From positions 1 to 45,859 of the forward strand of contig JAFGQY010000010.1 of the NCBI GenBank assembly GCA_016935395.1: a stretch of 45,859 nt of DNA, read 5' to 3'. How positions within the stretch are numbered: position 1 is the first letter of the stretch; each line of letters begins with the position of its first letter. The notes beneath the pieces are model-generated. The model did not search any database, was not told where the DNA came from, and saw only the letters and a list, made by a program, of their open reading frames with translations. Source of the DNA: Parachlamydiales bacterium. Its GTDB lineage: Bacteria; Chlamydiota; Chlamydiia; Chlamydiales; SM23-39. Both the position numbers and the translations under genes were made by a program. Of the stretch, positions 21,489-37,180 are shown piece after piece.

Positions 21489-22520
21489 ATGACGTTAAAT
21501 GTTAAGATAGATGAGATAAGAACAAAGTTTTTAAAGCAGCTTAAAGATGCAAAAACTTCAAAAGAAATTGAAAAACTGAAGGTTTTTTATTTAGGTAAAA
21601 AAGGTTCACTTCAAGATTTAATGCAGTTTTTGAAAACTGCTACAAGTGAAGAAAGACCTTTATTTGGAAAAAAGATAAACGATTTAAAAATTGAAATTAC
21701 ATCTCATCTAGAAAATACTTTAAAAAGACTTCTTCTAGACGAAGAAAATATTAAGCTTAAAAGCGAAAATATTGATATTACTCTGCCTGGAAGACGTCAT
21801 TTTTGGGGTAGATATCATCCAGTAACCTTGATGATGAATAACATGATTGATGTTTTGGTTTCTATGGGTTTTTCTGTAGAAACAGGGCCTGATATTGATT
21901 CTGATTTTTATAATTTTGAAGGATTAAATTTTTCTAAAGATCATCCTGCAAGAGATATGCAAGATACATTTTATATTTCAGACGATCTTCTCTTAAGAAC
22001 TCATACAAGCAATGTTCAAGTAAGAACAATGGAAAAATTCAAACCGCCGATTAGAGCCATAGCTCCAGGAAAATGTTTTAGAAATGAAACAATTTCTGCC
22101 AGATCACATGTGTTTTTTCATCAAATTGAACTGTTTTACATAGATGAAAATGTATCTTTTTCTGATCTTTTTTCAACTATGGACGAATTTTTAACTAAGC
22201 TTTTTAAAAAAGAAGTTAAAACCAGATTTAGACCTTCTTATTTTCCCTTTGTTGAACCTGGTATGGAATGTGATGTTGAATGCTTTATCTGCTCTGGACA
22301 AGGCTGCAGAGTATGTAAAGACTCAGGTTGGCTTGAAGTATTCGGAGCTGGTATGATACATCCTGAAGTTTTAAAATCTGGAGGCATCGATCCGGAAAAA
22401 TATTCAGGTTATGCAGCAGGCATCGGTGTAGAAAGACTTGCTATGCTTTTATATGGAATAAATGATATTAGATATTTTACACAAAATGATTTGAGGTTTT
22501 TGAAACAATTTAACTTGTAA
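21489..22520 (+). CDS. pheS: Phenylalanine--tRNA ligase alpha subunit
   Basis: 343 aa. Class II aaRS motifs: HPARDMQDTFY, LRTHTSNVQVR, FRNE, FHQIE and GIGVERLAML. Confidence 0.95.
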   Translation: MTLNVKIDEIRTKFLKQLKDAKTSKEIEKLKVFYLGKKGSLQDLMQFLKTATSEERPLFGKKINDLKIEITSHLENTLKRLLLDEENIKLKSENIDITLPGRRHFWGRYHPVTLMMNNMIDVLVSMGFSVETGPDIDSDFYNFEGLNFSKDHPARDMQDTFYISDDLLLRTHTSNVQVRTMEKFKPPIRAIAPGKCFRNETISARSHVFFHQIELFYIDENVSFSDLFSTMDEFLTKLFKKEVKTRFRPSYFPFVEPGMECDVECFICSGQGCRVCKDSGWLEVFGAGMIHPEVLKSGGIDPEKYSGYAAGIGVERLAMLLYGINDIRYFTQNDLRFLKQFNL

Positions 22521-22562
22521 AAATCTTATAAATTTTTATATTATTAGTATTTTCTATTTTAC

Positions 22563-22647
22563 GGAAGAGTGGCAGAGTGGCCGATCGCGTCTGTCTTGAA
22601 AACAGAAGACCCGCAAGGGTCCGGGGGTTCGAATCCCTCCTCTTCCG
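22563..22647 (+). tRNA. tRNA-Ser (anticodon UGA), class II with a long variable arm
   Basis: Acceptor stem GGAAGAG/CTCTTCC, anticodon stem TCTGT/ACAGA with loop CTTGAAA, a long variable arm (ACCCGCAAGGGTCC), T stem GGGGG/CCCTC with loop TTCGAAT, discriminator G. Confidence 0.9.
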
Positions 22648-22650
22648 ACA

Positions 22651-23115
22651 TTGCAACCAATTCGTACCTTTGTTCTCTTGATCAAGTAAAGCTAAAGTTT
22701 CTATGTTGGAATAGGCTAAATAATAGGGTTTTTGCTTGATTATACGGCCGTTTTCAACGATGGGATGTTCTAGTTCGATTGTTCCTAAAAGTTCTTTTAA
22801 AGTTAAAGCAGATGCTTTTGTATTTTGTTCTAGGGTTTCATGAAGTTTTTCAAGCTTGTTGTCGATCCATTCTTTTGGTGGGGCTTTAAAGGCGTTGTTT
22901 TTTTGAAAATCCAAGGCTTTAATTTCTGATGATAATTTTTCTTGTCTGCCTTCAGCATCAGTAATGTCATCTGACACGACTTTCGAAAAGTTGCCTGCTT
23001 TGATGAAGTTAAGCAGATTCTGAAGTTCGGCCTGGATTTTTTTAGATTGGACCTTTTTCGAGTCTGTAAATCTAACCGTTTAAATATTTTTTTTATTCGA
23101 TTTAGTAAAATTTAT
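22651..23115 (-). pseudogene. C-terminal remnant of a large serine recombinase-type protein (coiled-coil tail only; no catalytic domain)
   Basis: The minus-strand reading frame is open from 23115. It gives ...KKIQAELQNLLNFIKAGNFSKVVSDDITDAEGRQEKLSSEIKALD...EWIDNKLEKLHETLEQ...LKELLGTIELEHPIVENGR... This pattern is typical of the C-terminal coiled-coil region of large serine recombinases. There is no N-terminal resolvase domain, and the frame runs antisense into tRNA-Ser. Confidence 0.5.
22652..22668 (+). repeat. Repeat copy A (tgcaaccaattcgtacc), 4 nt downstream of tRNA-Ser
   Basis: It is a perfect 17-bp reverse complement of 31434-31450. The extended form caaccaattcgtacctttgt (22654-22673) matches the reverse complement of 23299-23317 with one substitution and one indel. 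Confidence 0.85.
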
Positions 23116-23298
23116 TCAAAAATATTTCAAAAATCTAGATTGCAACGATCACAACAGTGATTTTGCTAATGATAAGCTTTGACTCTATTTCTAGATTACT
23201 CACTCCCAAAGCTTTTAATTGCTTTATTTTAAAACTTAACTTTTAGTAAAGTGGTATAGATTGTTTTAAAGTGCTTTTAATCTTAGTAGTAATGGGCG

Positions 23299-23317
23299 AC
23301 AAAGTGCGAATTGGTTG
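23299..23317 (-). repeat. Repeat copy B (imperfect, inverted relative to copy A)
   Basis: acaaagtgcgaattggttg. Together with copy A it brackets the recombinase remnant. It is followed by gggcccagttcgaac, which contains a GTTCGAA T-loop-like string. Confidence 0.7.
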
Positions 23318-23367: not shown

Positions 23368-24159
23368 ATGAGCATTTCTAGTTTAAGTAAATTACCAGAG
23401 ATTGAAAAATCGGCATGTTTAGCTTTATGGGCTTTATTTTTAGAAAGTAGAAAAAAAAATAGTATTTATTATGATAAGAAATTAAATGAAATGATAGATA
23501 AATTATCATGTTATTTTCCTAAGATAAATTATACTTCTAATTATGTTTTAGAGATTGCATCCAGGAAAGAGCTTATAAAAGAAGTTATTAGTAAATTTAT
23601 TAATAAAAATGAAAATAGTATAATTATCAATCTTGGATGTGGTTTGGATAATTATTTTGATAGATTAAATACAACGAATGTTTTTTGGTTTGATATTGAT
23701 CTTTCTGGTGTAATTAATTTGAAGAAAAAGTTTTTTCGGGAATCGGATAATTATAAATTAATATCAAAATCAATTTTTGATTTTTCTTGGTTGAATAAAA
23801 TTCCAAAAAACAAAAAGACCCTTGTCCTTATCGAAGGATTGCTTCCATATTTTGAAGAAAAAGATGTTAAAATGCTGATAGATAAAATTATTAGTAATTT
23901 TCCTGATAGTGAATTAATTATTCATGTTATTTCACATTTATTTTATTGGTATCGGTCTTTGAGTAAAATATCTAATAATTTGAAATGGTCCATTTCAAAT
24001 AAAAAATGTGTTTTAAAAATATTTCCCGATTTAAAAATTTTAAAAGAATATTTCATATATGACTGTCATGTTGAAAGAATGAGCATTCTTAAAAGAATTT
24101 TAAGATTGTTTCCGTGTTATAGAAAACAAAATATTCTATTACATCTGAAGTCAAAATAA
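23368..24159 (+). CDS. SAM-dependent O-methyltransferase, leucine carboxyl methyltransferase / TcmP-like family
   Basis: 263 aa. The layout ACLALWALFLES...INLGCGLDNYFDRL...WFDIDLSGVINLKKK...LIEGLLPYFEEKDV matches the LCM/TcmP family (LGaGlDtR...w.evDlp.V...K...EGvl.YL) as I recall it. Confidence 0.65.
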   Translation: MSISSLSKLPEIEKSACLALWALFLESRKKNSIYYDKKLNEMIDKLSCYFPKINYTSNYVLEIASRKELIKEVISKFINKNENSIIINLGCGLDNYFDRLNTTNVFWFDIDLSGVINLKKKFFRESDNYKLISKSIFDFSWLNKIPKNKKTLVLIEGLLPYFEEKDVKMLIDKIISNFPDSELIIHVISHLFYWYRSLSKISNNLKWSISNKKCVLKIFPDLKILKEYFIYDCHVERMSILKRILRLFPCYRKQNILLHLKSK

Positions 24160-24161
24160 AA

Positions 24162-25394
24162 TCAAAGATATGGCTTGTGTGTTTTTAACATATAAAAATC
24201 TTCAAGAAGCTCATCGTAATTTGTGTTTTGTAATAAAATATCTGCAGCCACTCCTTCTTTTAAAGAAAGTGGATATCTAGAAATATTATCATTTATTTTT
24301 ATATGCCAGGCTATTTCAGTATGACTTTTTAATTTTGGAGGATTTAATTTATTTACAATTCCAGGATAACAAGCTAAATGAATTAAACTATGGTATAGAT
24401 TTTCTTTAAGATTGATATTTAAAGGTAATCCTAATTCACATCGCAAAGTTAGTTCATATAAATTTACATCGAAGTTTTTTTCATGCATAAAACAAATATT
24501 TTTTCCTGGCGGACGAGCACCAATTTCTAAAAAGATTAATTCGTTAGATTGTTTTTCTACAAAGAATTCTAAATGTAGTCCTCCATTAGGAGGGTTAAGT
24601 GCCTTAACGACTTCTTTGTTTAAATTTAATGCTCTTTCACGAAGTTGTGTATTTTTGCGTAAAGGAATGGCTCCAATCGGGAAACCAAAAGTAAAATTCA
24701 GGTTTGGACAAAGATATTCAGAAATTTCAGTAAATTTTATTTGTTTATTATAAACAAAAGAATCACATAAATAGAAAGTTCCTTCGATATATTGTTCTGC
24801 CGTATAATTATTCTTATAGGAAAAAGATTTATCATACCATTTTTGCAGGTTTTCAAAATTTTTTATTATTGCTGTATCTTCGCTGCCTCCTCCATCTAAA
24901 GGTTTTACGACATAAGGACCTTTAAATAAATCATAAAGGGAAAAGTGATATTTTGAAAGTTCATTTTTGGTAAGAATTCCTTCAAAGTCTACAAATTTAG
25001 GAACTTTTACATTGGCTATTGATAGAATCTGCTTCATTATTCTTTTAGAAGAAAAGGGTACATATTCATAGGGTTTGGGACCTGATAAATTAAAATATTC
25101 ACGCAATTGAGCTGCTGTTATCAATGATTTTTCATCTGCACAAACTATACTATCTTTTGGATTGTAATTTCCTTTTTTTCTTTGTGATTTTATTATTTGT
25201 TTGCAAATTTCAAAATCAATTTTCTCAATAACAAAAATGTTGCTTAAATGAGTTTTAAAAGAATCAGGAACATTTTTTTGATGTTCTTCATCAACTATCA
25301 GTACAAAGTTAATTTTTTCAGGTAAATCCCGTAATATTTTTTCAATATTATAATAACTAAAACGGCTAACAGCTAAAATAAAACAATATCTCAT
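24162..25394 (-). CDS. ATP-grasp family ligase (carboxylate-amine ligase type)
   Basis: 410 aa. Motifs: PYVVKPLDGGGSEDTAII, EQYIEG and LHLEFFVEKQSNELIFLEIGARPPG. Confidence 0.7.
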   Translation of the reverse strand: MRYCFILAVSRFSYYNIEKILRDLPEKINFVLIVDEEHQKNVPDSFKTHLSNIFVIEKIDFEICKQIIKSQRKKGNYNPKDSIVCADEKSLITAAQLREYFNLSGPKPYEYVPFSSKRIMKQILSIANVKVPKFVDFEGILTKNELSKYHFSLYDLFKGPYVVKPLDGGGSEDTAIIKNFENLQKWYDKSFSYKNNYTAEQYIEGTFYLCDSFVYNKQIKFTEISEYLCPNLNFTFGFPIGAIPLRKNTQLRERALNLNKEVVKALNPPNGGLHLEFFVEKQSNELIFLEIGARPPGKNICFMHEKNFDVNLYELTLRCELGLPLNINLKENLYHSLIHLACYPGIVNKLNPPKLKSHTEIAWHIKINDNISRYPLSLKEGVAADILLQNTNYDELLEDFYMLKTHKPYL

Positions 25395-25404
25395 ATATTA
25401 TCCT

Positions 25405-26679
25405 TTAAAATAGTTTTTCATAAATCTCATCAAGAGAATATTCAATTGAATTAAATTTATTATTGAATTCTTTAATCTTCGAAGAAATATTTTTTCTGTC
25501 CAAAATTATCTCTTTAAAAAACTTAGCCAGTTGAACCATATCTTTTTCTTTCATTCCTTTTCTTGTTACTTCTTGCACTCCTATTCTAACAGCCGGAAAA
25601 TCATATAAAATGCGTGAATTAGTGCTTATATTGGAATTATGTAAATCAGCACAGGCAACATGATGATCAATAGGAAAATCTCCAGTAATAGCTATCATAT
25701 GAGAAAGAGAAAATTGATTCTTCCTTTTAAATATTTTAAAACCTTCATTTATCAATGCCTGTGATAAGGCGTGATTATTTTTTATAATTTGATTGGCATA
25801 TTCTTTACCATGTATATACATTTCAATTATAGTGACATATAATGCAATTGCATGATGAGTATGTTGAGCTGAAATTGCGCTTTTAAATATTTCAGTTGCT
25901 ATTTCTTTTCCTAATGATTTGTTTTTATATAGGATCATGCCTTTTTGAGGCCCCGGAAAGGTTTTATGAGTATTTCCAATTAATACATCACATCCTTCTA
26001 GCAAGGGGTTTTGAAATTGTCCTCCAGCTATTAATCCTAATACGTGTGAAGCATCGTAAATCATTTTAACATCATTTCCAACAATTTCTCGAATTTCTCT
26101 AATAGGCAAAGGATAAAAGGGGGTTCCAAAATCAAACAAGATAGCATTCGGTTTTTCAATAAGTATTTGTTTTGATAATTTTTCCAAGTCAATATCCAAT
26201 TTTTTTTCACAAAAAGGAATAAAAGACACTTTTCTTCCTAAGCTTTTTAATAGTGAAACTGTTGCGGCATGGCCTACTGATTCTGTTGTAAATACATAAA
26301 CCCTGTCATTTGGCTTGGTCAATGTAGATAAAATACAAAATACAGTATGCATACCAGATAATGGTCTGAAATCTGCGTATTCTGCAAAAAACATTTTTTT
26401 TACATATTCTCTTGCCTGTTGTTCTAACAAAAATATTGGAGAAAGACATCTAAGCATCAATGAATTTTTTATTAAGCAAGATCTGGAAACGGTAAGATTT
26501 TTTTGATCGTCAAACATTCCAACATGATACCTATAACTTAGGGTGCTTTTAAGATAATGTTTTGATAATTTTGACATTATATTTTCATTCGCTGTCATAT
26601 GAATAGTATCATTTGAATCTATTTCCTCTTTGTTAATAAGATGTAAAATAGTTTCAAAATCTTTTAGGCTTGTTTCCAT
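25405..26679 (-). CDS. Serine hydroxymethyltransferase-like PLP-dependent enzyme (divergent paralogue; possible aldolase or transaldolase)
   Basis: 424 aa. HMTANENIMS (compare SHMT ASENF(T/V)S), PLSGMHT, and GNTHKTFPGPQKGMI (compare TTTHKTLRGPRGG, which carries the PLP lysine). Confidence 0.65.
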   Translation of the reverse strand: METSLKDFETILHLINKEEIDSNDTIHMTANENIMSKLSKHYLKSTLSYRYHVGMFDDQKNLTVSRSCLIKNSLMLRCLSPIFLLEQQAREYVKKMFFAEYADFRPLSGMHTVFCILSTLTKPNDRVYVFTTESVGHAATVSLLKSLGRKVSFIPFCEKKLDIDLEKLSKQILIEKPNAILFDFGTPFYPLPIREIREIVGNDVKMIYDASHVLGLIAGGQFQNPLLEGCDVLIGNTHKTFPGPQKGMILYKNKSLGKEIATEIFKSAISAQHTHHAIALYVTIIEMYIHGKEYANQIIKNNHALSQALINEGFKIFKRKNQFSLSHMIAITGDFPIDHHVACADLHNSNISTNSRILYDFPAVRIGVQEVTRKGMKEKDMVQLAKFFKEIILDRKNISSKIKEFNNKFNSIEYSLDEIYEKLF

Positions 26680-26689
26680 AATAACCTCA

Positions 26690-27511
26690 TTAATATAGTT
26701 CTTTTAGAGTCATTATATGCGCTGAAATTCTATGTAAGATCGAAAAAAAATTTTTGTTAAATGTCTTTAATAATTTATCTAATTCAGCATCAAATTTTTT
26801 TCTTTTATCCTTTGATAAACTTGCACCGATAGCTTGAGAAGCTTGAATTCTTCCTTTCCAAGATTCATTAGTAAAAGAGATTGGCTCGTCATAGTAAAAC
26901 ATAGCCTTTAAAGTAAAATATTTTGCATATCCTTCAGGAAAAGGAGGAATATATCCGTCAAAACCATCTCCTTTCCAATCAGGATTGAATTTAACCATTA
27001 ATTTTTCAGTTTCTCTAGCTATTTGATCTTTTTTTGGTAGGTGGTCGAAGTTTCCGATCATAATTAGTCCGTCCGGTTTTAGTACTTTTTTAATTTTGGG
27101 TAATAATGTTATTTTGTTAAAATATGGCCAACTTTGCATTATTATGATTACGTCGAAAAAATTTTCAGGGAAGTCTATATTTTCTGAAGCAATATTTTCG
27201 AATTGTATTTCTAAATTTTCATTTTTAGCCATTTTTTTTGCATAAGCAATTTGATTAGAAGAACTGTCTATGCCGGTAACTATGCAATTTTGTTTTGCAA
27301 AAATACGGGCTAAATTACCTACCCCGCATCCCAAGTCAAGAATTTTTTGTCTGGAAAGACCAATATCAAAAGAGTATAATTTTTTAAAAAAACTAGCCGG
27401 AGGAGGAGGTCTATATAAAAAATATTGTTCTGATGTAAGACTCCAATCGTATTGATTAACTTTGTTTGAAAAAGACATATAAAAAGGAGAATTATCTAAT
27501 TTTTTTATCAC
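26690..27511 (-). CDS. Class I SAM-dependent methyltransferase
   Basis: 273 aa. Motif I is ILDLGCGVGNLARIFA, followed by VTGIDSS and FDVIIIMQS. Confidence 0.75.
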   Translation of the reverse strand: MIKKLDNSPFYMSFSNKVNQYDWSLTSEQYFLYRPPPPASFFKKLYSFDIGLSRQKILDLGCGVGNLARIFAKQNCIVTGIDSSSNQIAYAKKMAKNENLEIQFENIASENIDFPENFFDVIIIMQSWPYFNKITLLPKIKKVLKPDGLIMIGNFDHLPKKDQIARETEKLMVKFNPDWKGDGFDGYIPPFPEGYAKYFTLKAMFYYDEPISFTNESWKGRIQASQAIGASLSKDKRKKFDAELDKLLKTFNKNFFSILHRISAHIMTLKELY

Positions 27512-27523
27512 AATTTTTCCTTA

Positions 27524-28471
27524 TTAAAAAATATATTTTGTTCCTACTGTATTTAATACAAATTTATCAGGTAGGGCATTGGCAATTTTATTTGTTGCTT
27601 TCCAACCTGTACAGTGCATAGGAACTATAATTTCAGGATTTATTTCTATGAATTTTTCAATAGTATTATCTATGGTTTTTTCAGGTAGATTTCCACATAA
27701 GTGAAATCCTCCGATAATCGCAAAAACTTTATCTATTTGAGTTAGTTTTTTTGCATGATAAATAGTGTTTATTATTCCTGCATGAGCACATCCGGAAATT
27801 ATTACTAATCCTTTATCTTTTATGTTGAATACTAATCCTTGGTCATCAAGAATAGGGTCAACCTCAATCTGATTATTATTCATTCTCCAAGTAGTTAATG
27901 ACGCTTTTTCAAATGAAGTACATCTAGGAATTTCACCTGTAGTAAGGGCTAAATTAGAAGAAAAAATATGAGGATCTTTTGTAATTGTTAATTTAGCTTT
28001 TAAATTTACTAATTCATTTTTATTCAAAGGTTGAAATTTGCAATATTTATTTTCTAAGGATTTAAATCCTCTAAGAAAAAAAACATCAGGGTGGAGGATT
28101 ACGTTGGTATTAGGGTTGGTGTTTTTTAAAATTGTTGATAATGAACCATAATGATCCATATGGCCATGACTTAATACAAAGTCATCTATTGTTAAGGGAT
28201 CTATGTTTAATAATTTGATATTATATGGAACACCAATGTCACTATAACCTGCATCTAATAGAATAGTGTGTATTTTTGAACCTTTATAAACTTTGATCAA
28301 TATGGATAAGCCATGCTCAGAAATAAATGTATCAGCTATGTCTTTGTCAGAAAAAATTGGTGGTCGATATACATATTTTTGATTTTCTAAGAATAAATCT
28401 AAATGATTATCAATAACAGAAATAATTTCTAACTTATCTGATGGTATAATTTTAATTCTTTTTTTAATCAT
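27524..28471 (-). CDS. MBL-fold metalloenzyme, COG1237-like
   Basis: 315 aa. SEHGLSILI...ILLDAGYS...VLSHGHMDHYGSL (HxHxDH) plus GCAHAG. The layout resembles the COG1237 / MJ0301-type MBL family. Confidence 0.65.
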   Translation of the reverse strand: MIKKRIKIIPSDKLEIISVIDNHLDLFLENQKYVYRPPIFSDKDIADTFISEHGLSILIKVYKGSKIHTILLDAGYSDIGVPYNIKLLNIDPLTIDDFVLSHGHMDHYGSLSTILKNTNPNTNVILHPDVFFLRGFKSLENKYCKFQPLNKNELVNLKAKLTITKDPHIFSSNLALTTGEIPRCTSFEKASLTTWRMNNNQIEVDPILDDQGLVFNIKDKGLVIISGCAHAGIINTIYHAKKLTQIDKVFAIIGGFHLCGNLPEKTIDNTIEKFIEINPEIIVPMHCTGWKATNKIANALPDKFVLNTVGTKYIF

Positions 28472-29927
28472 AGTTCTCTAATTTTTTTATATCTGTTAAC
28501 ATCCGAAAATAATCATTTCCATCATGATTCAATAAATCTATCTTTAAAGAAGAAGAATTGATTCTTAAATGAATAGCGTTTGTTTTAATTAATTCTTTAT
28601 TGAATAAATTGGAATTATCAATTTGTCCAAAAAAAGTAACTGATAATCTTTTTTGCGATACGCTATTATTTAATAAACTAATTCCATCTTCAATATTTTT
28701 ACATTTTTTTAATACTAAGGAAATTACCGGAAAAGGATTGTTAAAAATGTCTAATAAATCATCATTTGTTTCCATGAGTATTGGAAGAAAAATATTTTCA
28801 TTTGAAATGAATGAATTATTTCTGTCATTTAATATTTTAATTAAACTGCTTTTTTCTAGATCGTTAAATCGATTAGTAGCTGATTGAATTATTGTATTTT
28901 CTGTATACCCAACTAATGTTGTTTCATTCAAAAGATTTCCTGTCTGTTCATTTAATTCATTAAATCTTTCTATTAATCTGTCTTTTATCTCTTTATAACA
29001 TTCTTCAACGATGTAAAGTGATTTGAGTGACATGCATTCATGTGGAAGAGAAATAGAGGATTCTAAAATTAACTCAATGGTTTTATTAACATTAATGTTA
29101 TTACAAACCAATGCTGAACAATTATTATATGGATGACGAATAGCTGTTTTACTGCTGAAAAGATCAATATGTGCAGAACTATCTAAATTCTTATATCGAA
29201 AATTATTATCATCTCCAAATGTCCAAATAATATCACAATTTTCTATTAGATTTTCGTGTTTTTTTATTGAAGAAGGATCTTTCTCATCAAAGCTTATAAT
29301 ATTAACAGCATTTTTTGGATAATTCAAACTATGTAGTTTTTCTAATATTTTATAAATTAGGGGAGAAACAACAGGATTTGTTTTAATTATCAAAGGTATT
29401 CCCAAAAGAATGCTGATAGGTAATATTATTCCAATAGCTCTTATTGAAAAAAATGGTAATACTGCATAAGAAATACCTTTTTTAGGTGTATAATAAGTTT
29501 TATGCTGGGAATTTTTTTCCAAAAAAAAATCATTTTCGTATTCATAATTTTTAAAAATTTCTCTAATTTGATTGGAAAATATTTTTTTTAGATCATTTAT
29601 TTGTTTTTTAATAAAAGTTAAGGGTGTTCCGGAAAGAATTACTAAATGATTTAGCAAATCATCATCGAATAAATCGTCTGAAATCATAGAACTAGCAATG
29701 TTTTTTCTTTCTTCTAAGGTTATTTTCGAAAGATCGTTAGAGGCACTTTTGGCTTTTGAAATCGATATAGCTATATCAAAAGCTCCTGAATTGGCAGATT
29801 CTATTGAATAATTTGAAAAAAAAGAATTTGAATCAAAGTACTTTCCGCTCAAACATACTTTTTCACCATTTATCAAGTTATGAAAAGTTTTTTTTCCCAT
29901 ATTTTTTAACCAATTGAACACATACAA
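28464..29927 (-). CDS. Aldehyde dehydrogenase superfamily / LuxC-like acyl reductase
   Basis: 487 aa. ALDH-like N-terminus LINGEKV, and a candidate catalytic Cys context LPHECMSLKSLYIVEECY (compare GQxCxA..r..V). An alternative start is the ATG at 29900 (MGKKTF). Confidence 0.5.
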   Translation of the reverse strand: MYVFNWLKNMGKKTFHNLINGEKVCLSGKYFDSNSFFSNYSIESANSGAFDIAISISKAKSASNDLSKITLEERKNIASSMISDDLFDDDLLNHLVILSGTPLTFIKKQINDLKKIFSNQIREIFKNYEYENDFFLEKNSQHKTYYTPKKGISYAVLPFFSIRAIGIILPISILLGIPLIIKTNPVVSPLIYKILEKLHSLNYPKNAVNIISFDEKDPSSIKKHENLIENCDIIWTFGDDNNFRYKNLDSSAHIDLFSSKTAIRHPYNNCSALVCNNINVNKTIELILESSISLPHECMSLKSLYIVEECYKEIKDRLIERFNELNEQTGNLLNETTLVGYTENTIIQSATNRFNDLEKSSLIKILNDRNNSFISNENIFLPILMETNDDLLDIFNNPFPVISLVLKKCKNIEDGISLLNNSVSQKRLSVTFFGQIDNSNLFNKELIKTNAIHLRINSSSLKIDLLNHDGNDYFRMLTDIKKLENYD

Positions 29928-31171
29928 CCTGCACTGATCACATCTTCCGGATGATCTATTCGTTGAATATTTGATATTACTTTTGAGTGAATTTTACAGG
30001 GGCATTCACCTTCATCAGCAATAATGGTAGCCTGATCCCCAATTAAATATCGAATGTAAATTGTTCCTTCACGAGCAACAGTGGTATAAGCCAGCATGCC
30101 TGTTTCGCCTTTTTTGCATTTGATCAATTTATCATTTTCATATCTGACAACTTCGATATAGTGTGGCCCTTGTAGAAGATGTATGTTGTTATATTGACAA
30201 ATGTATTTATCGTTTTCGATTAGTGAACTAGTTCCCAATGCCATTGCTTCACATGCTCCATAAGCATTTACAAGTTTTATATTGAAAGCTTTCGCCCAAG
30301 AAATAACTTCGTCTATTAACTTATATCCGCCTAACCATACTATTTTTATATATTTTTCGATTAAGTCTTGCCCTTCATTAATTAGGCTAAATAAATCTAT
30401 ACCCCCACCTTTCCCTTCTTTTTCTTCTTTATTTAAAGGACCTTGAGTTGTCATTAAAATGTTTATTTTATATGTTTTGATCATTTCTATAAGATCTTTT
30501 GCGGTTTCATTTGTTCTTCTTGGGATATAATTTATTCCGCTTAGTTGCAAAGCTTCTTTTAATACTTCTCCGCCTTTATGAGTTGAATTATAAGTGCATA
30601 AAGCTATATCTTTTGGTGTGAAGCCTTCATAGCGAAAAGCCCTTGTAAAAGAATAAGCTTCTCTCATTAAATCGTCTTTTGTGTTAAAAGTAGGAGTTGC
30701 AACGCCTTTGGTTCCTCCAGACTTATATGTATAAGTTGGTTTTTTTATATCGCTTGGTAATAAACAGTATGGATTATGTTTAACCTTATTTCTAAATCCC
30801 TTATTAACAATGGTTGAGTCTTTAACTAAAAAAGGTATTATCTGATGAAAATCTTCTATGTTGTTGATATCATCAAGATTTATATCTTTATAAGCTTCTT
30901 TATAAATGTCCATAGTGTTTTTTGCTCTTTTTAATTGGAATTTTATGAAAGGGAATAGAAGTTTTGTTATTTCTTCTTCAGATAAAGTATCCCATTCATT
31001 TAATCCCCATGCTGCATGCGGAATAGAAAAAGGATTATTGTTTTTGCTTATAATTTTTTCTAAGAAAGAAAATTTTGAGACGGTATTACAACTCATTGCT
31101 TGACCTTTTTTAATTCTATAGACGAATAAGATTTTATATGCTTCGGTTTGTTTTTTTACAAATAATTTCAT
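29906..31171 (-). CDS. Adenylate-forming enzyme, PaaK / coenzyme F390 synthetase / LuxE-like
   Basis: 421 aa. The PaaK-like N-terminal layout (QLKRAKNTMDIYKEAYKDI...IEDFHQIIPFLVKDS) is followed by a degenerate AMP-binding P-loop YKSGGTKGVATPT (compare SSGTTGKPT). Confidence 0.55.
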   Translation of the reverse strand: MKLFVKKQTEAYKILFVYRIKKGQAMSCNTVSKFSFLEKIISKNNNPFSIPHAAWGLNEWDTLSEEEITKLLFPFIKFQLKRAKNTMDIYKEAYKDINLDDINNIEDFHQIIPFLVKDSTIVNKGFRNKVKHNPYCLLPSDIKKPTYTYKSGGTKGVATPTFNTKDDLMREAYSFTRAFRYEGFTPKDIALCTYNSTHKGGEVLKEALQLSGINYIPRRTNETAKDLIEMIKTYKINILMTTQGPLNKEEKEGKGGGIDLFSLINEGQDLIEKYIKIVWLGGYKLIDEVISWAKAFNIKLVNAYGACEAMALGTSSLIENDKYICQYNNIHLLQGPHYIEVVRYENDKLIKCKKGETGMLAYTTVAREGTIYIRYLIGDQATIIADEGECPCKIHSKVISNIQRIDHPEDVISAGCMCSIG

Positions 31172-31253: not shown

Positions 31254-31490
31254 TTATATATCCGAAAAATTAAGAGTTTTTCTTATGGTTTTTGTACTAA
31301 CATTCAATTTTATAGCGATTTGTTTTTCTGTCATTTTTAAAGCTTTTAATTCCCTAATCTTTCGAGCTAGCTTTTGATAAAGAGGAATATTTTCATTTAA
31401 TGTAATTTTAATCCTTATTGGAATGAGTGACATGGTACGAATTGGTTGCATCCGCGTCCGATTGGCTTTATTTTTAATATAAAAAACCAA
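31254..31490 (-). CDS. Small helix-turn-helix protein (resolvase/transposase-type HTH; possibly a gene remnant)
   Basis: 78 aa, but the likely start is M at 31433 (MSLIPIRI). The HTH is MTEKQIAIKLNVSTKTIRKTL. The 5' end of the ORF overlaps repeat copy C and the upstream ATPase gene. Confidence 0.4.
   Translation of the reverse strand: MVFYIKNKANRTRMQPIRTMSLIPIRIKITLNENIPLYQKLARKIRELKALKMTEKQIAIKLNVSTKTIRKTLNFSDI
31434..31450 (-). repeat. Repeat copy C (perfect inverted copy of A)
   Basis: ggtacgaattggttgca is the reverse complement of 22652-22668. Confidence 0.85.
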
Positions 31491-32709
31491 ATACCCAAAT
31501 TGGTATTTTATTTCCTATGCCTTGTTCTATTTCATCGCAAACAAGATAAGAATTTTTTAAAGATTTTATCTGATTAAATGATTTATTTTTTCCTCCTACT
31601 TCAAAAATATATTTGTTATCTGCTAGAAAATCCCCATTTTTTGGCAATGCAACAGTATATTTTTGAGATATCATGGAAAGAAGAAAAGTTTCTCGAATAG
31701 TTCCTTTGTTCATAAGGCTAAAAGGTGAAATTGCATAAATCTGATTGGTATTATCTAAATAAACTTTTTCGGGAGTTTCTAGTTTGCTAATTTTTTTTGT
31801 TGCCTTCGAAATTGATCGGATTAATCCAGCATCTTCTAAATGTTTAAAGTAAGATTTTAGTGTTCTTTCATCGCCGATATCTAAAATATTCATAATTTTT
31901 TTCCAGTTAGGGGTAAAGGGCACTGTTTCTGCAATAAAACTTAGAAGATTTTTAATTTTTCTAATACTTGAACCCATTAATTGAGGAAAGATAGCTGCAA
32001 TATCGGATTCTATTGTTGTATGCATATTTTGTTCTAAAGTAATCTTGTATAGAGCTTCATTATTTAATTCATTAAAGAAAGGATAATAACCTACCTTAAG
32101 ATATTGATTGAATAAAGGGATTACTTTTAGCTCTTTTTGATTTAATTGTTTATTAATGTTAGAAGTAATACGTTGATGTTGATCGCAAATTTCTTCTAGA
32201 GTAAATGAAGGAAAATTAAAATTATAAGCTAATTCTAAATATTCACGAAAAGATATGCCCTGCATATGATACTTAACTGCTCGTCTTGATAAATCATGAC
32301 TGCCTTTGAAAATCTCTAAAGCTGAACTTCCGGAAGAAAATATGTGTAATTTTGGAAAAGTATCATAAATGCTTTTTAATTCCTTTGACCAGTTTGGATA
32401 TTTATGTATTTCATCAAAAGCTATCCATTTTCCTCCATGAAGATTAAATTGTTCAGCAATTTCATAAAGGGAGGTTGAGCCTACTTGAAAGTGATCTGTT
32501 TGTATATACAAAATTCTTTCATCAAAAATATCTCCTTCAACTTTGTCTAGTAAAATTTGTACTAGTGAGGTAGTTTTACCAACGCCTCTCTGTCCGATAA
32601 TCAGAGACATCCTATTGCTAAAATCAGTAACTCGGGCCAAGGCTCTTTTATAAGGGCTATTTTTAATTTCTAAAAAATGATGACTTAATTTTTTTAATTC
32701 TTCAAGCAT
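31474..32709 (-). CDS. AAA-family ATPase with a C-terminal DUF4143-like region
   Basis: 411 aa. Walker A is IIGQRGVGKTT and Walker B is WIAFDEIH. Length and layout match AAA_14/DUF4143-type ATPases. Confidence 0.65.
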   Translation of the reverse strand: MLEELKKLSHHFLEIKNSPYKRALARVTDFSNRMSLIIGQRGVGKTTSLVQILLDKVEGDIFDERILYIQTDHFQVGSTSLYEIAEQFNLHGGKWIAFDEIHKYPNWSKELKSIYDTFPKLHIFSSGSSALEIFKGSHDLSRRAVKYHMQGISFREYLELAYNFNFPSFTLEEICDQHQRITSNINKQLNQKELKVIPLFNQYLKVGYYPFFNELNNEALYKITLEQNMHTTIESDIAAIFPQLMGSSIRKIKNLLSFIAETVPFTPNWKKIMNILDIGDERTLKSYFKHLEDAGLIRSISKATKKISKLETPEKVYLDNTNQIYAISPFSLMNKGTIRETFLLSMISQKYTVALPKNGDFLADNKYIFEVGGKNKSFNQIKSLKNSYLVCDEIEQGIGNKIPIWVFGFLY

Positions 32710-32962: not shown

Positions 32963-32994
32963 TGGTCGAGAGGTTCGAATCCCACTTCGTCCGA
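32963..32994 (+). repeat. Degenerate copy of a tRNA 3' end (att-like scar), in direct orientation relative to tRNA-Ser
   Basis: ggtcgagaGGTTCGAATCCCaCtTCgTCCGA compared with the tRNA-Ser 3' end ggtccgggGGTTCGAATCCCtCcTCtTCCGA. No matching 5' acceptor strand lies upstream, so this is not a tRNA gene. Confidence 0.6.
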
Positions 32995-33050
32995 AATGTT
33001 TAATTATTAATGTTTTAAAAATAATAATTGTAAAAAATATTTAAAAATGT

Positions 33051-33084: not shown

Positions 33085-33678
33085 ATGAAAAATAAGTCTC
33101 TATTTGAAATAGCTGATAATCAACAAGGTTTTTTTACTGCTAAGCAAGCTATAAAATGTGGTATTTCTTCTAAAAATCATGCATATTTTGTCAAAACAGG
33201 GAAATGGATTAAAGAAGGAAGAGGGCTATATAGATTATCAAATTACCCTATAGTAGAAAGACCGGATTTGATGAGGTTGTATCTGTGGAGCAGAAATTCT
33301 CATGATATTCCACAAGGAGTATTTTCTCATTCAACGGCTTTAATGATTTATGATTTATCTGATGTTATGCCTGAAAAAATTTATATGACAGTTCCTAAAA
33401 ATTTTAAGCGAAGATCTAAAATTCCTGAAATTTTACAAATTCATAAAAAAAATCTACTAAAAGAAGATATTCGATATTACTTAGATGTTAAAGTAACAAC
33501 CCCAATAAGAACTATAATTGATATTATTGAAGAAAACCTTGTTTCTAAGGAATTAATTTATCAAGCCATACAAGAAGCTTTATCAAGAGGTTTAATTATT
33601 TCTAAGAATAAAATATTGGAACATCCCTATTTGATTGATAATAAACAATTAAAAAAGCAAGTAGAGAAATATTTATGA
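33085..33678 (+). CDS. AbiEi-family antitoxin / transcriptional regulator (type IV toxin-antitoxin)
   Basis: 197 aa. The N-terminal wHTH GFFTAKQAIKCGISSKNHAYFVKTGKWIKEGRGLYRL is typical of the AbiEi_4 domain. It overlaps the downstream gene by 4 bp (ATGA). Confidence 0.7.
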   Translation: MKNKSLFEIADNQQGFFTAKQAIKCGISSKNHAYFVKTGKWIKEGRGLYRLSNYPIVERPDLMRLYLWSRNSHDIPQGVFSHSTALMIYDLSDVMPEKIYMTVPKNFKRRSKIPEILQIHKKNLLKEDIRYYLDVKVTTPIRTIIDIIEENLVSKELIYQAIQEALSRGLIISKNKILEHPYLIDNKQLKKQVEKYL

Positions 33679-35848: not shown

Positions 35849-35922
35849 TGAAGAAATTATCACGGCAGGACTTAGAGCTAAAGAAAAAATAAAACAGCAA
35901 TTATTTTCAAAGGAGCTTTTGA

Positions 35923-36384: not shown

Positions 36385-36410
36385 ATTATAACAAAAAGGG
36401 TGGTTATAAT

Positions 36411-36854: not shown

Positions 36855-37151
36855 TTGCCTTTAATATTATTAAAAAAAGCCAGTTTAAAATACATTTGAA
36901 AAATCAGCTCATTTTTTGAAATTTGTGGCAATTTACTTCTGCTTTCAAAGTCTTTTGGTAAAAATTAAAAATTTGATTTTCTAAAATATTTATTTATAAA
37001 CAACAGTATCTTATCAGGCTTGTTATAAATAACTTACATATAGCTGCGTTAAGCTTAAAAGAGTTAAGTCTTAAATAATATTAAGATTTTTAACGATTAT
37101 CAAGTCAAAAACATTAAAAACCTATAAATATTTTATTATTTAATGGTTTTG

Positions 37152-37180
37152 TTGACAAAATCGTTAATATGAGTAATAAT
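37152..37180 (+). promoter_or_regulatory. Putative sigma-70-type promoter upstream of the Fic gene
   Basis: TTGACA (37152-37157), a 17-nt spacer, then AATAAT (37175-37180), about 30 nt upstream of the ORF start. Confidence 0.3.

What the first reader, a model, noticed from the sequence alone, without database searches (positions are those of the whole stretch)
23368..31171. Compact 7-gene cluster for an unknown small molecule in a chlamydia-like genome (top candidate for a novel system)
Seen in the sequence: six co-directional minus-strand genes are packed with a 22-bp overlap, an 8-bp overlap, and 12-, 10- and 10-bp gaps. In transcription order they are:
1. a PaaK/F390/LuxE-like adenylating enzyme;
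2. an ALDH/LuxC-like enzyme;
3. a COG1237-type MBL-fold enzyme;
4. a class I SAM methyltransferase;
5. a divergent SHMT-like PLP enzyme with the THK lysine;
6. an ATP-grasp ligase.

A TcmP/LCM-type O-methyltransferase converges on the cluster, with only 2 bp between the stop codons. I saw no NRPS, PKS, carrier protein, obvious precursor peptide or transporter inside the cluster.

Inference, a coherent route:
1. A carboxylic acid is adenylated.
2. It is reduced to an aldehyde.
3. The SHMT-fold enzyme uses it as the acceptor in an aldol or transaldol reaction. L-threonine transaldolases such as ObiH are SHMT-fold precedents. The product is a beta-hydroxy-alpha-amino acid.
4. The ATP-grasp enzyme ligates it to an amine or amino acid.
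5. The product is methylated twice.

As far as I know, Chlamydiae are not known producers of specialised metabolites. The cluster also sits in a tRNA-linked island. Both a horizontally acquired natural-product pathway and a host-directed metabolite are plausible.
Basis: inference. Interest (0 to 1): 0.85.

Follow-up and report, generated by a model that had tools for sequence, protein, structure and literature searches.

The report
Compact dipeptide-type biosynthetic cluster in chlamydial MAG
A chlamydia-like bacterium carries a small, rare gene cluster that most likely makes an unknown methylated beta-hydroxy dipeptide without the usual giant peptide synthetases, pairing a threonine-transaldolase-like enzyme and an amino-acid ligase with a two-protein acid-to-aldehyde reductase built like the one in luminous bacteria.

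Summary
Seven intact genes lie at 23368-31171, six of them co-directional and tightly packed. The 22-bp overlap is probably a 5-bp gap.

Family calls are largely right and can be sharpened:
- The SHMT-like protein fails the curated SHMT threshold. It lacks SHMT's catalytic Glu and shares two indels with the threonine transaldolase ObiH.
- The ATP-grasp is a RizA-type L-amino-acid ligase.
- The adenylase has no ANL C-terminal domain and ends in a conserved Gly-Cys tail, as LuxE does.
- Its ALDH-fold neighbour keeps the nucleophilic Cys.

Comparison of 10 loci shows a conserved core: the transaldolase-like gene is always followed by an ATP-grasp ligase. The methyltransferase is often present and is fused to the ligase in two lineages. 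An MFS exporter is often present too.

Adenylase, ALDH and MBL form an accessory module:
- ALDH-MBL plus the core recurs in one other metagenome contig.
- Adenylase-ALDH alone recurs in Clostridium beijerinckii.

A 110-nt direct repeat brackets exactly the seven genes.

Most likely this is an NRPS-independent pathway: acid to aldehyde, then a beta-hydroxy amino acid, then a dipeptide that is methylated. The product and the step order are inferred. It is a new variant of known kinds and moderately to highly interesting.

The parts
29906..31171 (-). Short PaaK-like adenylase, architecturally LuxE-like. It has the ANL N-terminal domain only and a conserved C-terminal G-C-M-C tail. The probable true start is the ATG at 31096 (396 aa).
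   Evidence: NCBIfam: DVU_1553-family 66.7 bits, PaaK 49 bits, F390 synthetase 37 bits, all below cut-offs. Best PDB hits are PaaK 4r1l and 2y27; the query ends at PaaK residue ~322 of 436, so the C-terminal domain is absent. Motifs SGGTKG (151), YGACE (304) and YLIGD (375) are present. The C-terminal Gly-Cys is conserved in 3/3 close homologues and in 18/18 full-length family representatives. LuxE has the same layout (PMC9157457).
28464..29927 (-). Highly divergent ALDH-fold protein, read as a LuxC-like thioester reductase. The conserved nucleophile is Cys298. The probable start is the ATG at 29900 (478 aa).
   Evidence: Pfam Aldedh 45.1 bits against a cut-off of 23. Only 4 sequence clusters turn up in a 5.8-billion-protein search. 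In a profile-versus-PDB alignment, the P-x-E-C-M-S-L-K motif falls on the ALDH catalytic Cys motif G-Q-x-C. The positions of the general-base Glu (ELGG) and the oxyanion Asn (PWNFP) hold other residues. It sits next to the short adenylase in three independent contexts.
27524..28471 (-). MBL-fold metallo-hydrolase. The metal motif is intact. Its role is unknown.
   Evidence: Pfam Lactamase_B 29.9 bits against a cut-off of 22.7. PDB 2p4z 87 bits and 3h3e 66 bits; neither carries a specific functional name in the search output. HGHMDH at residues 102-107 is conserved in the L089 orthologue, which is 47% identical.
26690..27511 (-). Class I SAM-dependent methyltransferase. It belongs to the conserved core, and in two other lineages it is fused to the C-terminus of the ATP-grasp ligase.
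   Evidence: Pfam Methyltransf_25 70.8 bits and Methyltransf_11 66.4 bits. Orthologues 43-57% identical lie next to the transaldolase-like gene in L002, L089, L004 and L095. In L004 and L095 they form 629- and 630-aa ATP-grasp::MT fusions. PDB matches cover only the SAM-binding domain, so the acceptor atom is unresolved.
25405..26679 (-). SHMT-fold PLP enzyme of the L-threonine-transaldolase type. PLP Lys239 lies in T-H-K. D209, H137 and R365 are present.
   Evidence: NCBIfam gives 296 bits on the fluorothreonine transaldolase model and 215 bits on the SHMT model, whose cut-off is 335. A control archaeal SHMT scores 488 on the SHMT model. SHMT's Y-A-E-G Glu is replaced (R-Y-H-V-G). The R-Y-Y-x-G loop is replaced by a ~15-residue insert. 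The folate loop is 8 residues shorter. The 2-residue deletion after G-H and the short loop are shared with ObiH 7k34.
24162..25394 (-). ATP-grasp ligase of the L-amino-acid-ligase (RizA) type.
   Evidence: PDB RizA 4wd3: 77 bits for the single sequence. The family profile gives 120 bits, E 1e-33, over ~325 residues, ahead of BL00235, BacD and Ddl. The K164, H274-L-E276 and E290-I-G-A-R motifs are invariant in the family. The family has only 16 close clusters.
23368..24159 (+). LCM/TcmP-type SAM methyltransferase, convergent on the operon. Its membership in the pathway is weakly supported.
   Evidence: Pfam LCM 38 bits against a cut-off of 22.3. TIGR00027 scores 25 bits, below its cut-off of 93.55. 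No homologue appears in any related locus. It does lie inside the segment bracketed by the 110-nt repeat.
23208..23317 (.). Left copy of a 110-nt direct repeat that brackets the seven genes.
   Evidence: 79/110 identical to 31339-31448, blastn E 2.8e-11. Random 110-mer pairs from the region give mean 32.6, sd 5.0 and maximum 54 in about 200,000 trials.
31339..31448 (.). Right copy of the 110-nt direct repeat, in the leader region upstream of the adenylase.
   Evidence: Its 3' part (31434-31450) matches 22652-22668 exactly (17/17) on the opposite strand, right next to tRNA-Ser. A third, partial, inverted copy lies at 40629-40697.
22562..22649 (+). tRNA-Ser(UGA) at the left edge of the putative island (context, not part of the pathway).
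   Evidence: ARAGORN and Rfam tRNA 52 bits. A fragment resembling its 3' end (27/34 identical) lies at 32964-32997.

Best explanation
The region is an NRPS-independent biosynthetic operon for a small modified dipeptide-like metabolite, carried on a mobile-looking island of a Parachlamydiales MAG.

Proposed mechanism. The enzyme classes are shown by sequence. Substrates and step order are inferred.

1. The short adenylase activates a carboxylic acid with ATP. Like LuxE, it parks the acyl group as a thioester on the Cys of its flexible C-terminal Gly-Cys tail.
2. The ALDH-fold partner takes the acyl group onto Cys298. It reduces it with NAD(P)H to an aldehyde, as LuxC does. It lacks the Glu that would hydrolyse the thioester.
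3. The PLP enzyme, a threonine-transaldolase-type SHMT-fold protein, forms a glycyl quinonoid from L-threonine or glycine and adds it to the aldehyde. The product is a beta-hydroxy-alpha-amino acid.
4. The RizA-type ATP-grasp ligase joins that amino acid to a second amino acid through an acyl-phosphate intermediate.
5. The class I methyltransferase methylates the ligase's substrate or product.
6. The MBL hydrolase and the convergent LCM-type methyltransferase act as accessory tailoring, editing or immunity functions.

Steps 3-5 form the conserved core of a rare family of clusters. Steps 1-2 are a building-block supply module specific to this locus and one relative.
For: Operon structure:
- Six co-directional genes are separated by no more than 12 bp or overlap.
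- The same order recurs at 47-61% identity in L089.

Core conservation:
- In 10 distinct loci the transaldolase-like gene is immediately followed by an ATP-grasp ligase. The loci are the window, L089, the P0002 contig, L002, L004, L095, L092, L093, L094 and L176.
- At least two ATP-grasp types are involved: the RizA-like family and a 318-aa Ddl-like protein in L176. The ligase on the P0002 contig has a different Pfam profile and is absent from the RizA-like family list.
- The MT is fused to the ligase in two lineages.
- MFS exporters sit in four loci, a GNAT in one and an NRPS C-A module in one.

Transaldolase assignment:
- Model scores, with an archaeal SHMT as control.
- Loss of the SHMT Glu and of the folate loops.
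- Indels shared with ObiH.
- Characterised TTAs are often annotated as SHMT, and they use only L-Thr (PMC10495429).

Ligase assignment:
- RizA at E 1e-33.

Reductase pair:
- No ANL C-terminal domain.
- Gly-Cys tail invariant in 21 of 21 sequences.
- The ALDH catalytic Cys is aligned, while the Glu and Asn positions are not conserved.
- Adenylase-ALDH adjacency in the window, in C. beijerinckii and in L091.
- The LuxE/LuxC mechanism and layout as described in PMC9157457.
- The adenylase is 60-64% identical to the Clostridium proteins, which stand alone. This suggests its substrate is a common free acid rather than a cluster-specific peptide (inference).
- An engineered CAR + TTA cascade from acid to beta-hydroxy amino acid works in E. 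coli (PMC10495429).
Against: - No product, substrate or transcript data exist.
- Most loci with the core lack any aldehyde-generating gene. The transaldolase therefore does not generally need a dedicated supplier.
- Accessory genes elsewhere point to 2-oxo-acid and amino-acid supply rather than aldehyde supply. They include LeuDH/TrpDH-like dehydrogenases, an isopropylmalate-synthase-like gene and an IPMDH::aconitase fusion.
- LuxE and LuxC Pfam models do not match, so the mechanistic analogy rests on architecture.
- AlphaFold models were too poor to test folds.
- No role can be assigned to the MBL.
- The LCM methyltransferase is not conserved.
- No exporter lies in this copy of the cluster.
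- Whether L089 has the adenylase is unknown, because the contig ends about 130 bp upstream of the first ALDH-aligned residue.
Confidence: 0.45

Rival explanations
1. Same cluster and same enzymes, but the reductase pair acts last. The transaldolase uses a common cellular aldehyde and the ligase builds the dipeptide. The LuxE/LuxC-like pair then reduces the peptide's C-terminal carboxylate to a peptide aldehyde, a protease-inhibitor warhead that an intracellular bacterium could direct at its host.
For: Most core loci work without a dedicated aldehyde supplier. The reductase pair is an add-on found in few loci. From general knowledge, peptide aldehydes such as leupeptin are made in some bacteria by discrete ligases plus a reductase.
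Against: The adenylase is 60-64% identical to Clostridium homologues whose flanking 10 kb holds no transaldolase-like or RizA-type ligase gene. A shared simple acid substrate is therefore more likely than a cluster-specific dipeptide. A methyl ester from a carboxyl methyltransferase would compete for the same carboxylate.
Confidence: 0.15
2. Two unrelated modules were brought together by island assembly. Adenylase-ALDH(-MBL) is a self-contained acid/aldehyde-handling unit. MT-transaldolase-ligase is a separate dipeptide unit. The two share only a promoter.
For: Each module occurs alone elsewhere: adenylase-ALDH in C. beijerinckii and L091, and the core in L002, L004, L092-L095 and L176. The locus is flanked by mobile and defence-type genes and by repeats.
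Against: ALDH-MBL is joined to the core in the same order in a second, diverged contig at 47-61% identity, with an MFS gene inserted between them. This indicates selection for linkage. Gaps of 12 bp or less and an 8-bp overlap leave no room for internal promoters or terminators. An aldehyde is exactly the co-substrate a transaldolase needs.
Confidence: 0.15
3. Housekeeping reading: a second SHMT for one-carbon metabolism or D-alanine supply, plus a Ddl-like ligase for cell-wall dipeptides in a chlamydial genome.
For: Pfam SHMT 87.9 bits. The ATP-grasp shows weak Ddl similarity at 33 bits on the NCBIfam models. From general knowledge, chlamydial GlyA has been reported to racemise alanine.
Against: The SHMT model score of 215 is below its cut-off of 335. 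The catalytic Glu and the folate loops are lost. The ligase profile matches RizA at 120 bits and Ddl at only 38 bits or less. The ligase family has only 16 clusters in 5.8 billion proteins, and distribution is patchy. The island context, exporters, a GNAT and an NRPS partner in relatives also argue against it.
Confidence: 0.05
4. An anti-phage defence or toxin system, given the defence-type neighbours.
For: The adjacent AAA_14 ATPase matches the candidate defence family PDC-S01 at 100 bits, and an AbiEi/AbiEii pair follows.
Against: None of the seven proteins matches a defence model beyond generic MBL or SAM-binding domains. All seven belong to small-molecule enzyme families.
Confidence: 0.02

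Closest known systems
L-threonine transaldolases (ObiH/ObaG of obafluorin, fluorothreonine transaldolase, LipK)
   Same: SHMT-fold PLP enzyme with the T-H-K lysine, the stacking His, Asp and the carboxylate-binding Arg. It scores higher on the transaldolase model than on the SHMT model. It shares with ObiH the 2-residue deletion after G-H and the short loop 2. It sits in a specialised-metabolite context.
   Different: It is a separate clade. By phmmer it scores higher against archaeal SHMT 4bhd (207 bits) than against ObiH (142 bits). It is below the TIGR04506 equivalog cut-off (296 against 650) and lacks that model's C-terminal domain. Its partner is an ATP-grasp ligase rather than an NRPS or a nucleoside pathway. 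The donor (Thr or Gly) and the acceptor are unknown.
L-amino-acid ligases of NRPS-independent dipeptide antibiotics (RizA of rhizocticin, BacD of bacilysin, BL00235)
   Same: ATP-grasp fold. The family profile matches RizA over ~325 residues at E 1e-33. The E-I-x-x-R Mg/ATP motif resembles RizA's. The logic is the same: make an unusual amino acid, then ligate it without an NRPS.
   Different: No sequence outside the family's own 16 clusters exceeded 27% identity to the window ligase in the search run here. Every member whose context could be read is coupled to a transaldolase-like gene. Two lineages fuse it to a methyltransferase. Substrates are unknown.
LuxE/LuxC fatty-acid reductase of bacterial bioluminescence
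   Same: A PaaK-related adenylase without the ANL C-terminal subdomain, ending in a short tail with a conserved Gly-Cys. The adjacent gene encodes a ~480-aa ALDH-fold protein with a conserved active-site Cys (Cys298 here, Cys296 in LuxC) and no hydrolytic Glu.
   Different: No detectable sequence membership: PF04443 and PF05893 are not hit at E<=10. The adenylase is closer to PaaK and the DVU_1553 family. There is no lux context and no LuxD transferase. The substrate is unlikely to be myristate. Acyl transfer to the tail Cys is inferred, not shown.
Single-polypeptide carboxylic acid reductases (CAR) coupled to a TTA, an engineered cascade (PMC10495429)
   Same: The same overall chemistry as proposed here: acid to aldehyde to beta-hydroxy-alpha-amino acid.
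   Different: CARs are single A-PCP-R proteins that need phosphopantetheinylation. Here there are two small proteins and no carrier domain. The published cascade is artificial, whereas this would be a natural one.

Membership tests
Serine hydroxymethyltransferase (GlyA; NCBIfam NF000586) | Score above the curated family cut-off (335 bits) | tested here: not met
   215 bits. Seven relatives score 169-220. A control archaeal SHMT scores 488.
Serine hydroxymethyltransferase (GlyA; NCBIfam NF000586) | Catalytic Glu in Y-A-E-G, plus the R-Y-Y-x-G and long N-K-N-x-x-P folate-binding loops | tested here: not met
   The window has R-Y-H-V-G, a ~15-residue insert in place of R-Y-Y-x-G, and a loop 8 residues shorter than in five archaeal SHMTs.
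Serine hydroxymethyltransferase (GlyA; NCBIfam NF000586) | PLP-binding T-H-K lysine and fold-type I core | tested here: met
   K239 in T-H-K, D209, H137, R365. Pfam SHMT 87.9 bits.
L-threonine transaldolase (ObiH/FTase/LipK type) | Conserved H131, D204, K234 and R366 equivalents (ObiH numbering, PMC10495429) | tested here: met
   H137, D209, K239 and R365 align to the G-G-H, Y-D-x-S-H, T-H-K and I-R-L-G positions of 7k34.
L-threonine transaldolase (ObiH/FTase/LipK type) | Remodelled loop 1 and loop 2 (the former folate site) relative to SHMT | tested here: met
   Both loops differ from SHMT. Loop 2 length and the G-H deletion equal those of ObiH.
L-threonine transaldolase (ObiH/FTase/LipK type) | TIGR04506 equivalog cut-off (650 bits) | tested here: not met
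   296 bits. The match covers only positions 4-407 of the 609-position model.
L-threonine transaldolase (ObiH/FTase/LipK type) | Uses L-Thr as glycyl donor, releases acetaldehyde and is folate-independent | not testable with these tools
   Needs an enzyme assay.
L-amino-acid ligase (ATP-grasp, RizA/BacD type) | Full-length similarity to a characterised Lal, with the ATP-grasp nucleotide and Mg motifs | tested here: met
   RizA 4wd3 at 120 bits, E 1e-33, profile positions 49-373. K164, E276 and E290-x-x-x-R294 are invariant.
L-amino-acid ligase (ATP-grasp, RizA/BacD type) | Forms an alpha-dipeptide from unprotected amino acids | not testable with these tools
   Needs an enzyme assay.
LuxE acyl-protein synthetase | Adenylate-forming N-terminal domain without the ANL C-terminal subdomain | tested here: met
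   The alignment to PaaK stops at residue ~322 of 436 and the protein ends ~20 residues later.
LuxE acyl-protein synthetase | Short C-terminal tail with a conserved Gly-Cys acylation site | tested here: met
   G-C-M-C lies 4-7 residues from the end and is conserved in 3/3 close and 18/18 distant family members. The LuxE motif is T-R-x-x-K-G-C-x-L-S. Acylation itself was not tested.
LuxE acyl-protein synthetase | Match to Pfam PF04443 | tested here: not met
   Not reported at E<=10.
LuxC acyl-CoA/acyl-protein reductase | ALDH fold with a conserved active-site Cys and no thioester-hydrolysing general base | tested here: inconclusive
   Cys298 aligns to the ALDH catalytic Cys. The E-L-G-G Glu position reads I-R-H-P and the P-W-N-F-P Asn position reads L-P-x-x. 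These alignments are low-scoring (22-36 bits) and the AF2 model was unusable.
LuxC acyl-CoA/acyl-protein reductase | Match to Pfam PF05893 | tested here: not met
   Not reported at E<=10. Only PF00171 is hit, at 45 bits.
Phenylacetate-CoA ligase PaaK / coenzyme F390 synthetase | Family cut-off, and a C-terminal domain carrying the catalytic Lys | tested here: not met
   41-49 bits against cut-offs of 646-700. F390 synthetase scores 37 against 459. The C-terminal domain is absent.
Metallo-beta-lactamase fold hydrolase | H-x-H-x-D-H metal motif and a Pfam Lactamase_B match | tested here: met
   HGHMDH at 102-107. 29.9 bits against a cut-off of 22.7. PDB 2p4z 87 bits.
LCM/TcmP carboxyl O-methyltransferase | Pfam PF04072 above cut-off; TIGR00027 subfamily cut-off | tested here: inconclusive
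   PF04072 scores 38 against 22.3, so it is met. TIGR00027 scores 25 against 93.55, so it is not met. The methyl acceptor is unknown.
NRPS/PKS biosynthetic cluster | Condensation, adenylation-PCP or KS domains in the cluster | tested here: not met
   No such Pfam domains occur in the seven proteins. One related locus, L176, does have a C-A module.

The most novel reading that the evidence does not exclude
The cluster is a natural two-protein carboxylate reductase feeding a threonine transaldolase and an amino-acid ligase. The reductase is a previously unrecognised, LuxE/LuxC-like family of short adenylases that self-acylate on a C-terminal Gly-Cys tail, working with a divergent ALDH-fold reductase. 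The whole pathway is a carrier-protein-free route from a simple acid to a methylated beta-hydroxy dipeptide, possibly matured to a reactive warhead. It would be made by an obligate intracellular chlamydial symbiont and could be aimed at its eukaryotic host or at competitors.
Probability: 0.3. Interest if true: 0.75.

Novelty: new variant of a known kind. Interest (0 to 1): 0.62.

Why it matters
No chlamydial natural product has been characterised, although BGCs were predicted across the phylum in 2022. This cluster is only 8 kb, intact and free of megasynthases, so it is practical to synthesise and express.

Three outcomes would follow if the reading is right:
1. It would give the first chemistry for a rare family of transaldolase + ligase clusters. 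The ligase family has only 16 sequence clusters among 5.8 billion proteins.
2. It would provide a natural precedent for the acid to aldehyde to beta-hydroxy amino acid cascade that enzyme engineers built artificially.
3. It would reveal a new two-component carboxylate reductase family that needs no phosphopantetheine carrier, which would be useful in biocatalysis.

The conserved C-terminal Gly-Cys tail makes the reductase mechanism directly testable by two point mutations.

Tried and rejected
- AlphaFold2 models were too poor for fold comparison: ALDH-like from a 4-sequence alignment, mean pLDDT 46.7; adenylase from a single sequence, 39.5.
- The genome-contig scan with the SHMT-like alignment was swamped by archaeal SHMTs, because the conserved peptides are shared. 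It returned no locus with the partner genes.
- The metagenome-contig scan with the ATP-grasp alignment re-found only two loci already known (L096 = L002, L097 = L093). ATP-grasp relatives at 31% identity or less have no transaldolase neighbour.
- tblastn against plasmids found no adenylase homologue and only distant ATP-grasp relatives at 24-32% identity.
- Rfam found no riboswitch or leader RNA in 22.4-33.2 kb.
- Promoter and terminator scans were no better than shuffles in this AT-rich DNA.
- Pfam and PHROGs did not support my impression that 22650-23079(-) is a recombinase remnant.
- PADLOC gave no defence assignment for the seven genes.
- The nearby window genes for MFS, LysE and GNAT are not homologous to those in related clusters, so they were not added to the cluster.
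- Full-text searches for transaldolase or SHMT-like together with ATP-grasp or amino-acid ligase found no description of such a cluster.
- Cluster look-ups gave no organism names for most related contigs, so I make no claim that the family is restricted to Chlamydiae.

Full report
**1. Observation**

The window is a complete 45,859-bp contig of a MAG that NCBI labels Parachlamydiales bacterium, locus tags JXA94_008xx-009xx. The spacings are as stated. Two starts are probably shorter than the longest ORF:
- The ALDH-like gene aligns with its homologues, and with NCBI's 478-aa model, from the ATG at 29900. The gap to the adenylase stop is then 5 bp, not a 22-bp overlap.
- The adenylase aligns with its homologues from Met26, the ATG at 31096, which has an AAAGG upstream.

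G+C is 24-32% across the cluster and 24-36% in the flanks, so composition does not mark the cluster as foreign.

**2. What each gene is**

*(a) SHMT-like protein, 25405-26679.*
- It keeps the fold-type I PLP set: T-H-K239, D209, H137 and R365.
- It scores 215 bits on the curated SHMT model, below the cut-off of 335. It scores 296 bits on the fluorothreonine-transaldolase model.
- Seven relatives behave the same way. A genuine archaeal SHMT used as a control scores 488 on the SHMT model and 226 on the transaldolase model.
- Aligned with five archaeal SHMTs, the window clade replaces Y-A-E-G with R-Y-H-V-G. From established SHMT enzymology, that Glu is needed for the folate-dependent reaction but not for retro-aldol cleavage.
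- The clade also replaces R-Y-Y-x-G with a ~15-residue insert and shortens the second folate loop by 8 residues.
- The short loop and a 2-residue deletion after G-H are shared with the crystallised transaldolase ObiH.
- Published work shows that transaldolases are a broad family often annotated as SHMT or hypothetical. The active ones used only L-Thr as donor (PMC10495429).

*(b) ATP-grasp, 24162-25394.*
- The best solved relative is the L-amino-acid ligase RizA, at 77 bits for the single sequence and 120 bits (E 1e-33) for the family profile.
- BL00235, BacD and D-Ala-D-Ala ligases score far lower.

*(c) Adenylase, 29906-31171.*
- It is PaaK/F390/DVU_1553-like at sub-threshold scores.
- It stops right after the hinge, so the ANL C-terminal domain is missing.
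- The three close homologues end in G-C-M-C-x-x.
- An exhaustive search of 1.84 billion representatives found 149 relatives. All 18 full-length ones inspected end in G-C followed by 2-4 residues.
- This matches the published description of LuxE: a PaaK-like N-domain, no C-terminal subdomain, and a ~20-residue tail whose Cys364, in T-R-x-x-K-G-C-x-L-S, is acylated and hands the acyl group to Cys296 of LuxC (PMC9157457).

*(d) ALDH-like protein, 28464-29927.*
- Pfam Aldedh scores 45 bits.
- Only four sequence clusters exist in the 5.8-billion-protein index.
- Its invariant P-x-E-C-M-S-L-K aligns with the ALDH catalytic G-Q-x-C.
- The positions of the hydrolytic Glu and the oxyanion Asn hold other residues.
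- LuxE and LuxC Pfam models are not matched even at E<=10. The resemblance is therefore architectural and does not establish family membership.

*(e) MBL, 27524-28471.* The HGHMDH motif is intact. The closest structures carry only generic names in the search output.

*(f) Class I methyltransferase, 26690-27511.* Only the SAM-binding domain matches known structures, so the acceptor is unresolved.

*(g) LCM/TcmP-type methyltransferase, 23368-24159.* Pfam LCM scores 38 bits.

**3. Comparative genomics**

Neighbourhoods were read for homologues of the PLP enzyme, the ALDH-like protein and the ligase. The ten distinct loci are:

| Locus | Gene order |
|---|---|
| Window | ADE-ALDH-MBL-MT-TTA-Lal |
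| L089 | ALDH-MBL-MFS-MT-TTA-Lal-IPMDH::aconitase |
| P0002 contig | MT-TTA-threonine-aldolase-like-ATP-grasp |
| L002 | MFS-MT-TTA-Lal |
| L004 (Chlamydiae CG10) | TTA-Lal::MT fusion, with a GNAT |
| L095 | TTA-Lal::MT fusion |
| L092 | LeuDH/TrpDH-like-TTA-Lal-MFS, plus a FadD-like adenylase |
| L093 | LeuDH/TrpDH-like-TTA-Lal-MFS |
| L094 | TTA-Lal-isopropylmalate-synthase-like |
| L176 | PhyH-aminotransferase-NRPS(C-A)-TTA-Ddl-like ATP-grasp |

Three points follow.
- The transaldolase-like gene is always immediately followed by an ATP-grasp ligase, even where the ligase is of a different subfamily. That pair is the functional core.
- The methyltransferase is tied to the ligase by two independent gene fusions.
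- The RizA-like ligase family has only 16 close clusters. Nine could be read in context and all nine lie beside a transaldolase-like gene. Two more share a contig length with a transaldolase-like homologue.

Exporters, a GNAT, an NRPS module and variable building-block genes are the signature of a diversifying family of specialised-metabolite clusters.

The adenylase-ALDH pair occurs alone in Clostridium beijerinckii and in L091, at 60-64% and 41% identity. ALDH-MBL is linked to the core only in the window and in L089/L090. Whether L089 has the adenylase cannot be told, because the contig ends about 130 bp upstream of the first ALDH-aligned residue and those bases hold no adenylase ORF.

**4. 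Island context**

- tRNA-Ser lies at 22562-22649.
- A fragment resembling its 3' end (27/34 identical) lies at 32964-32997.
- Between them are the seven genes and an AAA_14 ATPase that matches the candidate defence family PDC-S01. An AbiEi/AbiEii pair follows.
- A 110-nt direct repeat brackets exactly the seven genes, at 23208-23317 and 31339-31448. It is 79/110 identical with E 2.8e-11. Random pairs give at most 54/110.
- The right copy shares an exact 17-mer with the sequence abutting the tRNA.
- A third, partial, inverted copy lies at 40629-40697, so the repeat may be a dispersed intergenic element rather than an att site.

This is the only evidence linking the LCM methyltransferase to the other six genes.

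**5. Mechanism**

The best-supported reading has five main steps:
1. A LuxE/LuxC-like two-protein reductase turns an acid into an aldehyde.
2. The transaldolase-type PLP enzyme adds a glycyl unit to give a beta-hydroxy-alpha-amino acid.
3. The RizA-type ligase makes a dipeptide.
4. The methyltransferase modifies it.
5. The MBL and the LCM methyltransferase are accessory.

The enzyme classes and their linkage are shown by sequence. Substrates, step order and product are inferred.

Two observations favour the supply role of the reductase:
- A transaldolase needs an aldehyde.
- The high identity of the adenylase to stand-alone Clostridium homologues suggests a common free-acid substrate.

An engineered CAR + transaldolase cascade performs this chemistry in E. 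coli (PMC10495429).

The main rivals are:
- Terminal reduction of the dipeptide to a peptide aldehyde.
- Functional independence of the two modules.
- A housekeeping SHMT/Ddl reading, which the membership tests reject.

**6. Comparison with known systems, and novelty**

Each enzyme belongs to a known superfamily. NRPS-independent dipeptide pathways such as bacilysin and rhizocticin are known, as is the use of transaldolases in natural-product pathways such as obafluorin and the nucleoside antibiotics. I found no description of a transaldolase + L-amino-acid-ligase cluster, or of a LuxE-like Gly-Cys-tail adenylase family outside lux operons, in the searchable literature.

Biosynthetic potential in Chlamydiae has been reported since 2022, as NRPS-like, RiPP-like, type III PKS and phosphonate clusters (PMC9666466). 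The phylum itself is therefore no longer the surprise.

I rate this a new variant of known kinds. It is small and experimentally tractable, and it carries a specific, testable enzymological lead.

Noticed in passing
window 23208-23317, 31339-31448 and 40629-40697: A ~110-nt intergenic repeat. Two direct copies (79/110 identical) bracket exactly the seven-gene cluster. A third, partial, inverted copy (74% over 69 nt) sits in another intergenic region. It could be a cassette boundary, a small mobile element or a shared regulatory region.
   Followed up: partly
window 22652-22668(-) and 31434-31450(+): An exact 17-nt match, GTACGAATTGGTTGCAA. One copy abuts the 3' end of tRNA-Ser and the other lies in the right copy of the 110-nt repeat. 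It may be a recombination core site.
   Followed up: no
window 32964-32997: A fragment resembling a tRNA 3' end (GGTTCGAATCCC T-arm), 27/34 identical to the end of tRNA-Ser at 22618-22651. ARAGORN and Rfam do not call it a tRNA. It could be the far att site of a ~10.3-kb island.
   Followed up: partly
window 22650-23079 (-): An open frame without a start codon, next to tRNA-Ser, that reads like a coiled-coil C-terminal remnant. I suspected a recombinase pseudogene. The overlapping 155-aa ORF (22510-22977) gave no Pfam hit and the 143-aa frame gave no PHROGs hit.
   Followed up: partly
window 31474-32709 (-), 33085-34160 (+): Defence and mobile-type neighbours. An AAA_14 ATPase matches the candidate defence family PDC-S01 (100 bits). 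It is followed by an AbiEi antitoxin and a short (161-aa, probably truncated) AbiEii toxin.
   Followed up: partly
L004 11193-13082 and L095 10001-11893: The ATP-grasp ligase and the class I methyltransferase are fused into one 629-630-aa protein in two lineages, one of them Chlamydiae bacterium CG10. This Rosetta-stone link shows the two act together.
   Followed up: yes
L089 7103-10219: A 1038-aa fusion of an isopropylmalate/homoisocitrate-dehydrogenase-like domain and an aconitase/IPM-isomerase large-subunit-like domain lies directly after the ligase. L094 has an isopropylmalate-synthase-like gene in the same place. This suggests 2-oxo-acid chain extension feeding these clusters.
   Followed up: partly
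L092 2743-3771 and L093 7631-8692: A LeuDH/TrpDH-type amino-acid dehydrogenase (best NCBIfam model ScyB, ~247 bits, below cut-off) overlaps the start of the transaldolase-like gene by 4 bp in two loci. L093 also encodes an unusually long 722-aa GreA-domain protein.
   Followed up: no
L087/L088 8674-11425 (Clostridium beijerinckii chromosome): The short adenylase + ALDH-like pair stands alone between an IS66-type zinc-finger fragment and a Transposase_mut gene in a cultured, genetically tractable species. It would be a convenient organism for testing the reductase hypothesis.
   Followed up: partly
L012 upstream of 10001 (Streptomyces sp. NPDC005408): The open frame that contains the transaldolase-like domain continues far upstream into sequence with thiolation-domain and condensation-domain motifs (e.g. 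FFRLGGDSI). A transaldolase domain may be fused to an NRPS here. Alternatively this is an artefact of my upstream ORF extension.
   Followed up: no
window 35339-39451: A run of small accessory genes lies downstream of the island: LysE-type exporter (N-terminally short), GNAT, NUDIX, Fic and MFS. None is homologous to the transporters or GNAT of related clusters.
   Followed up: partly
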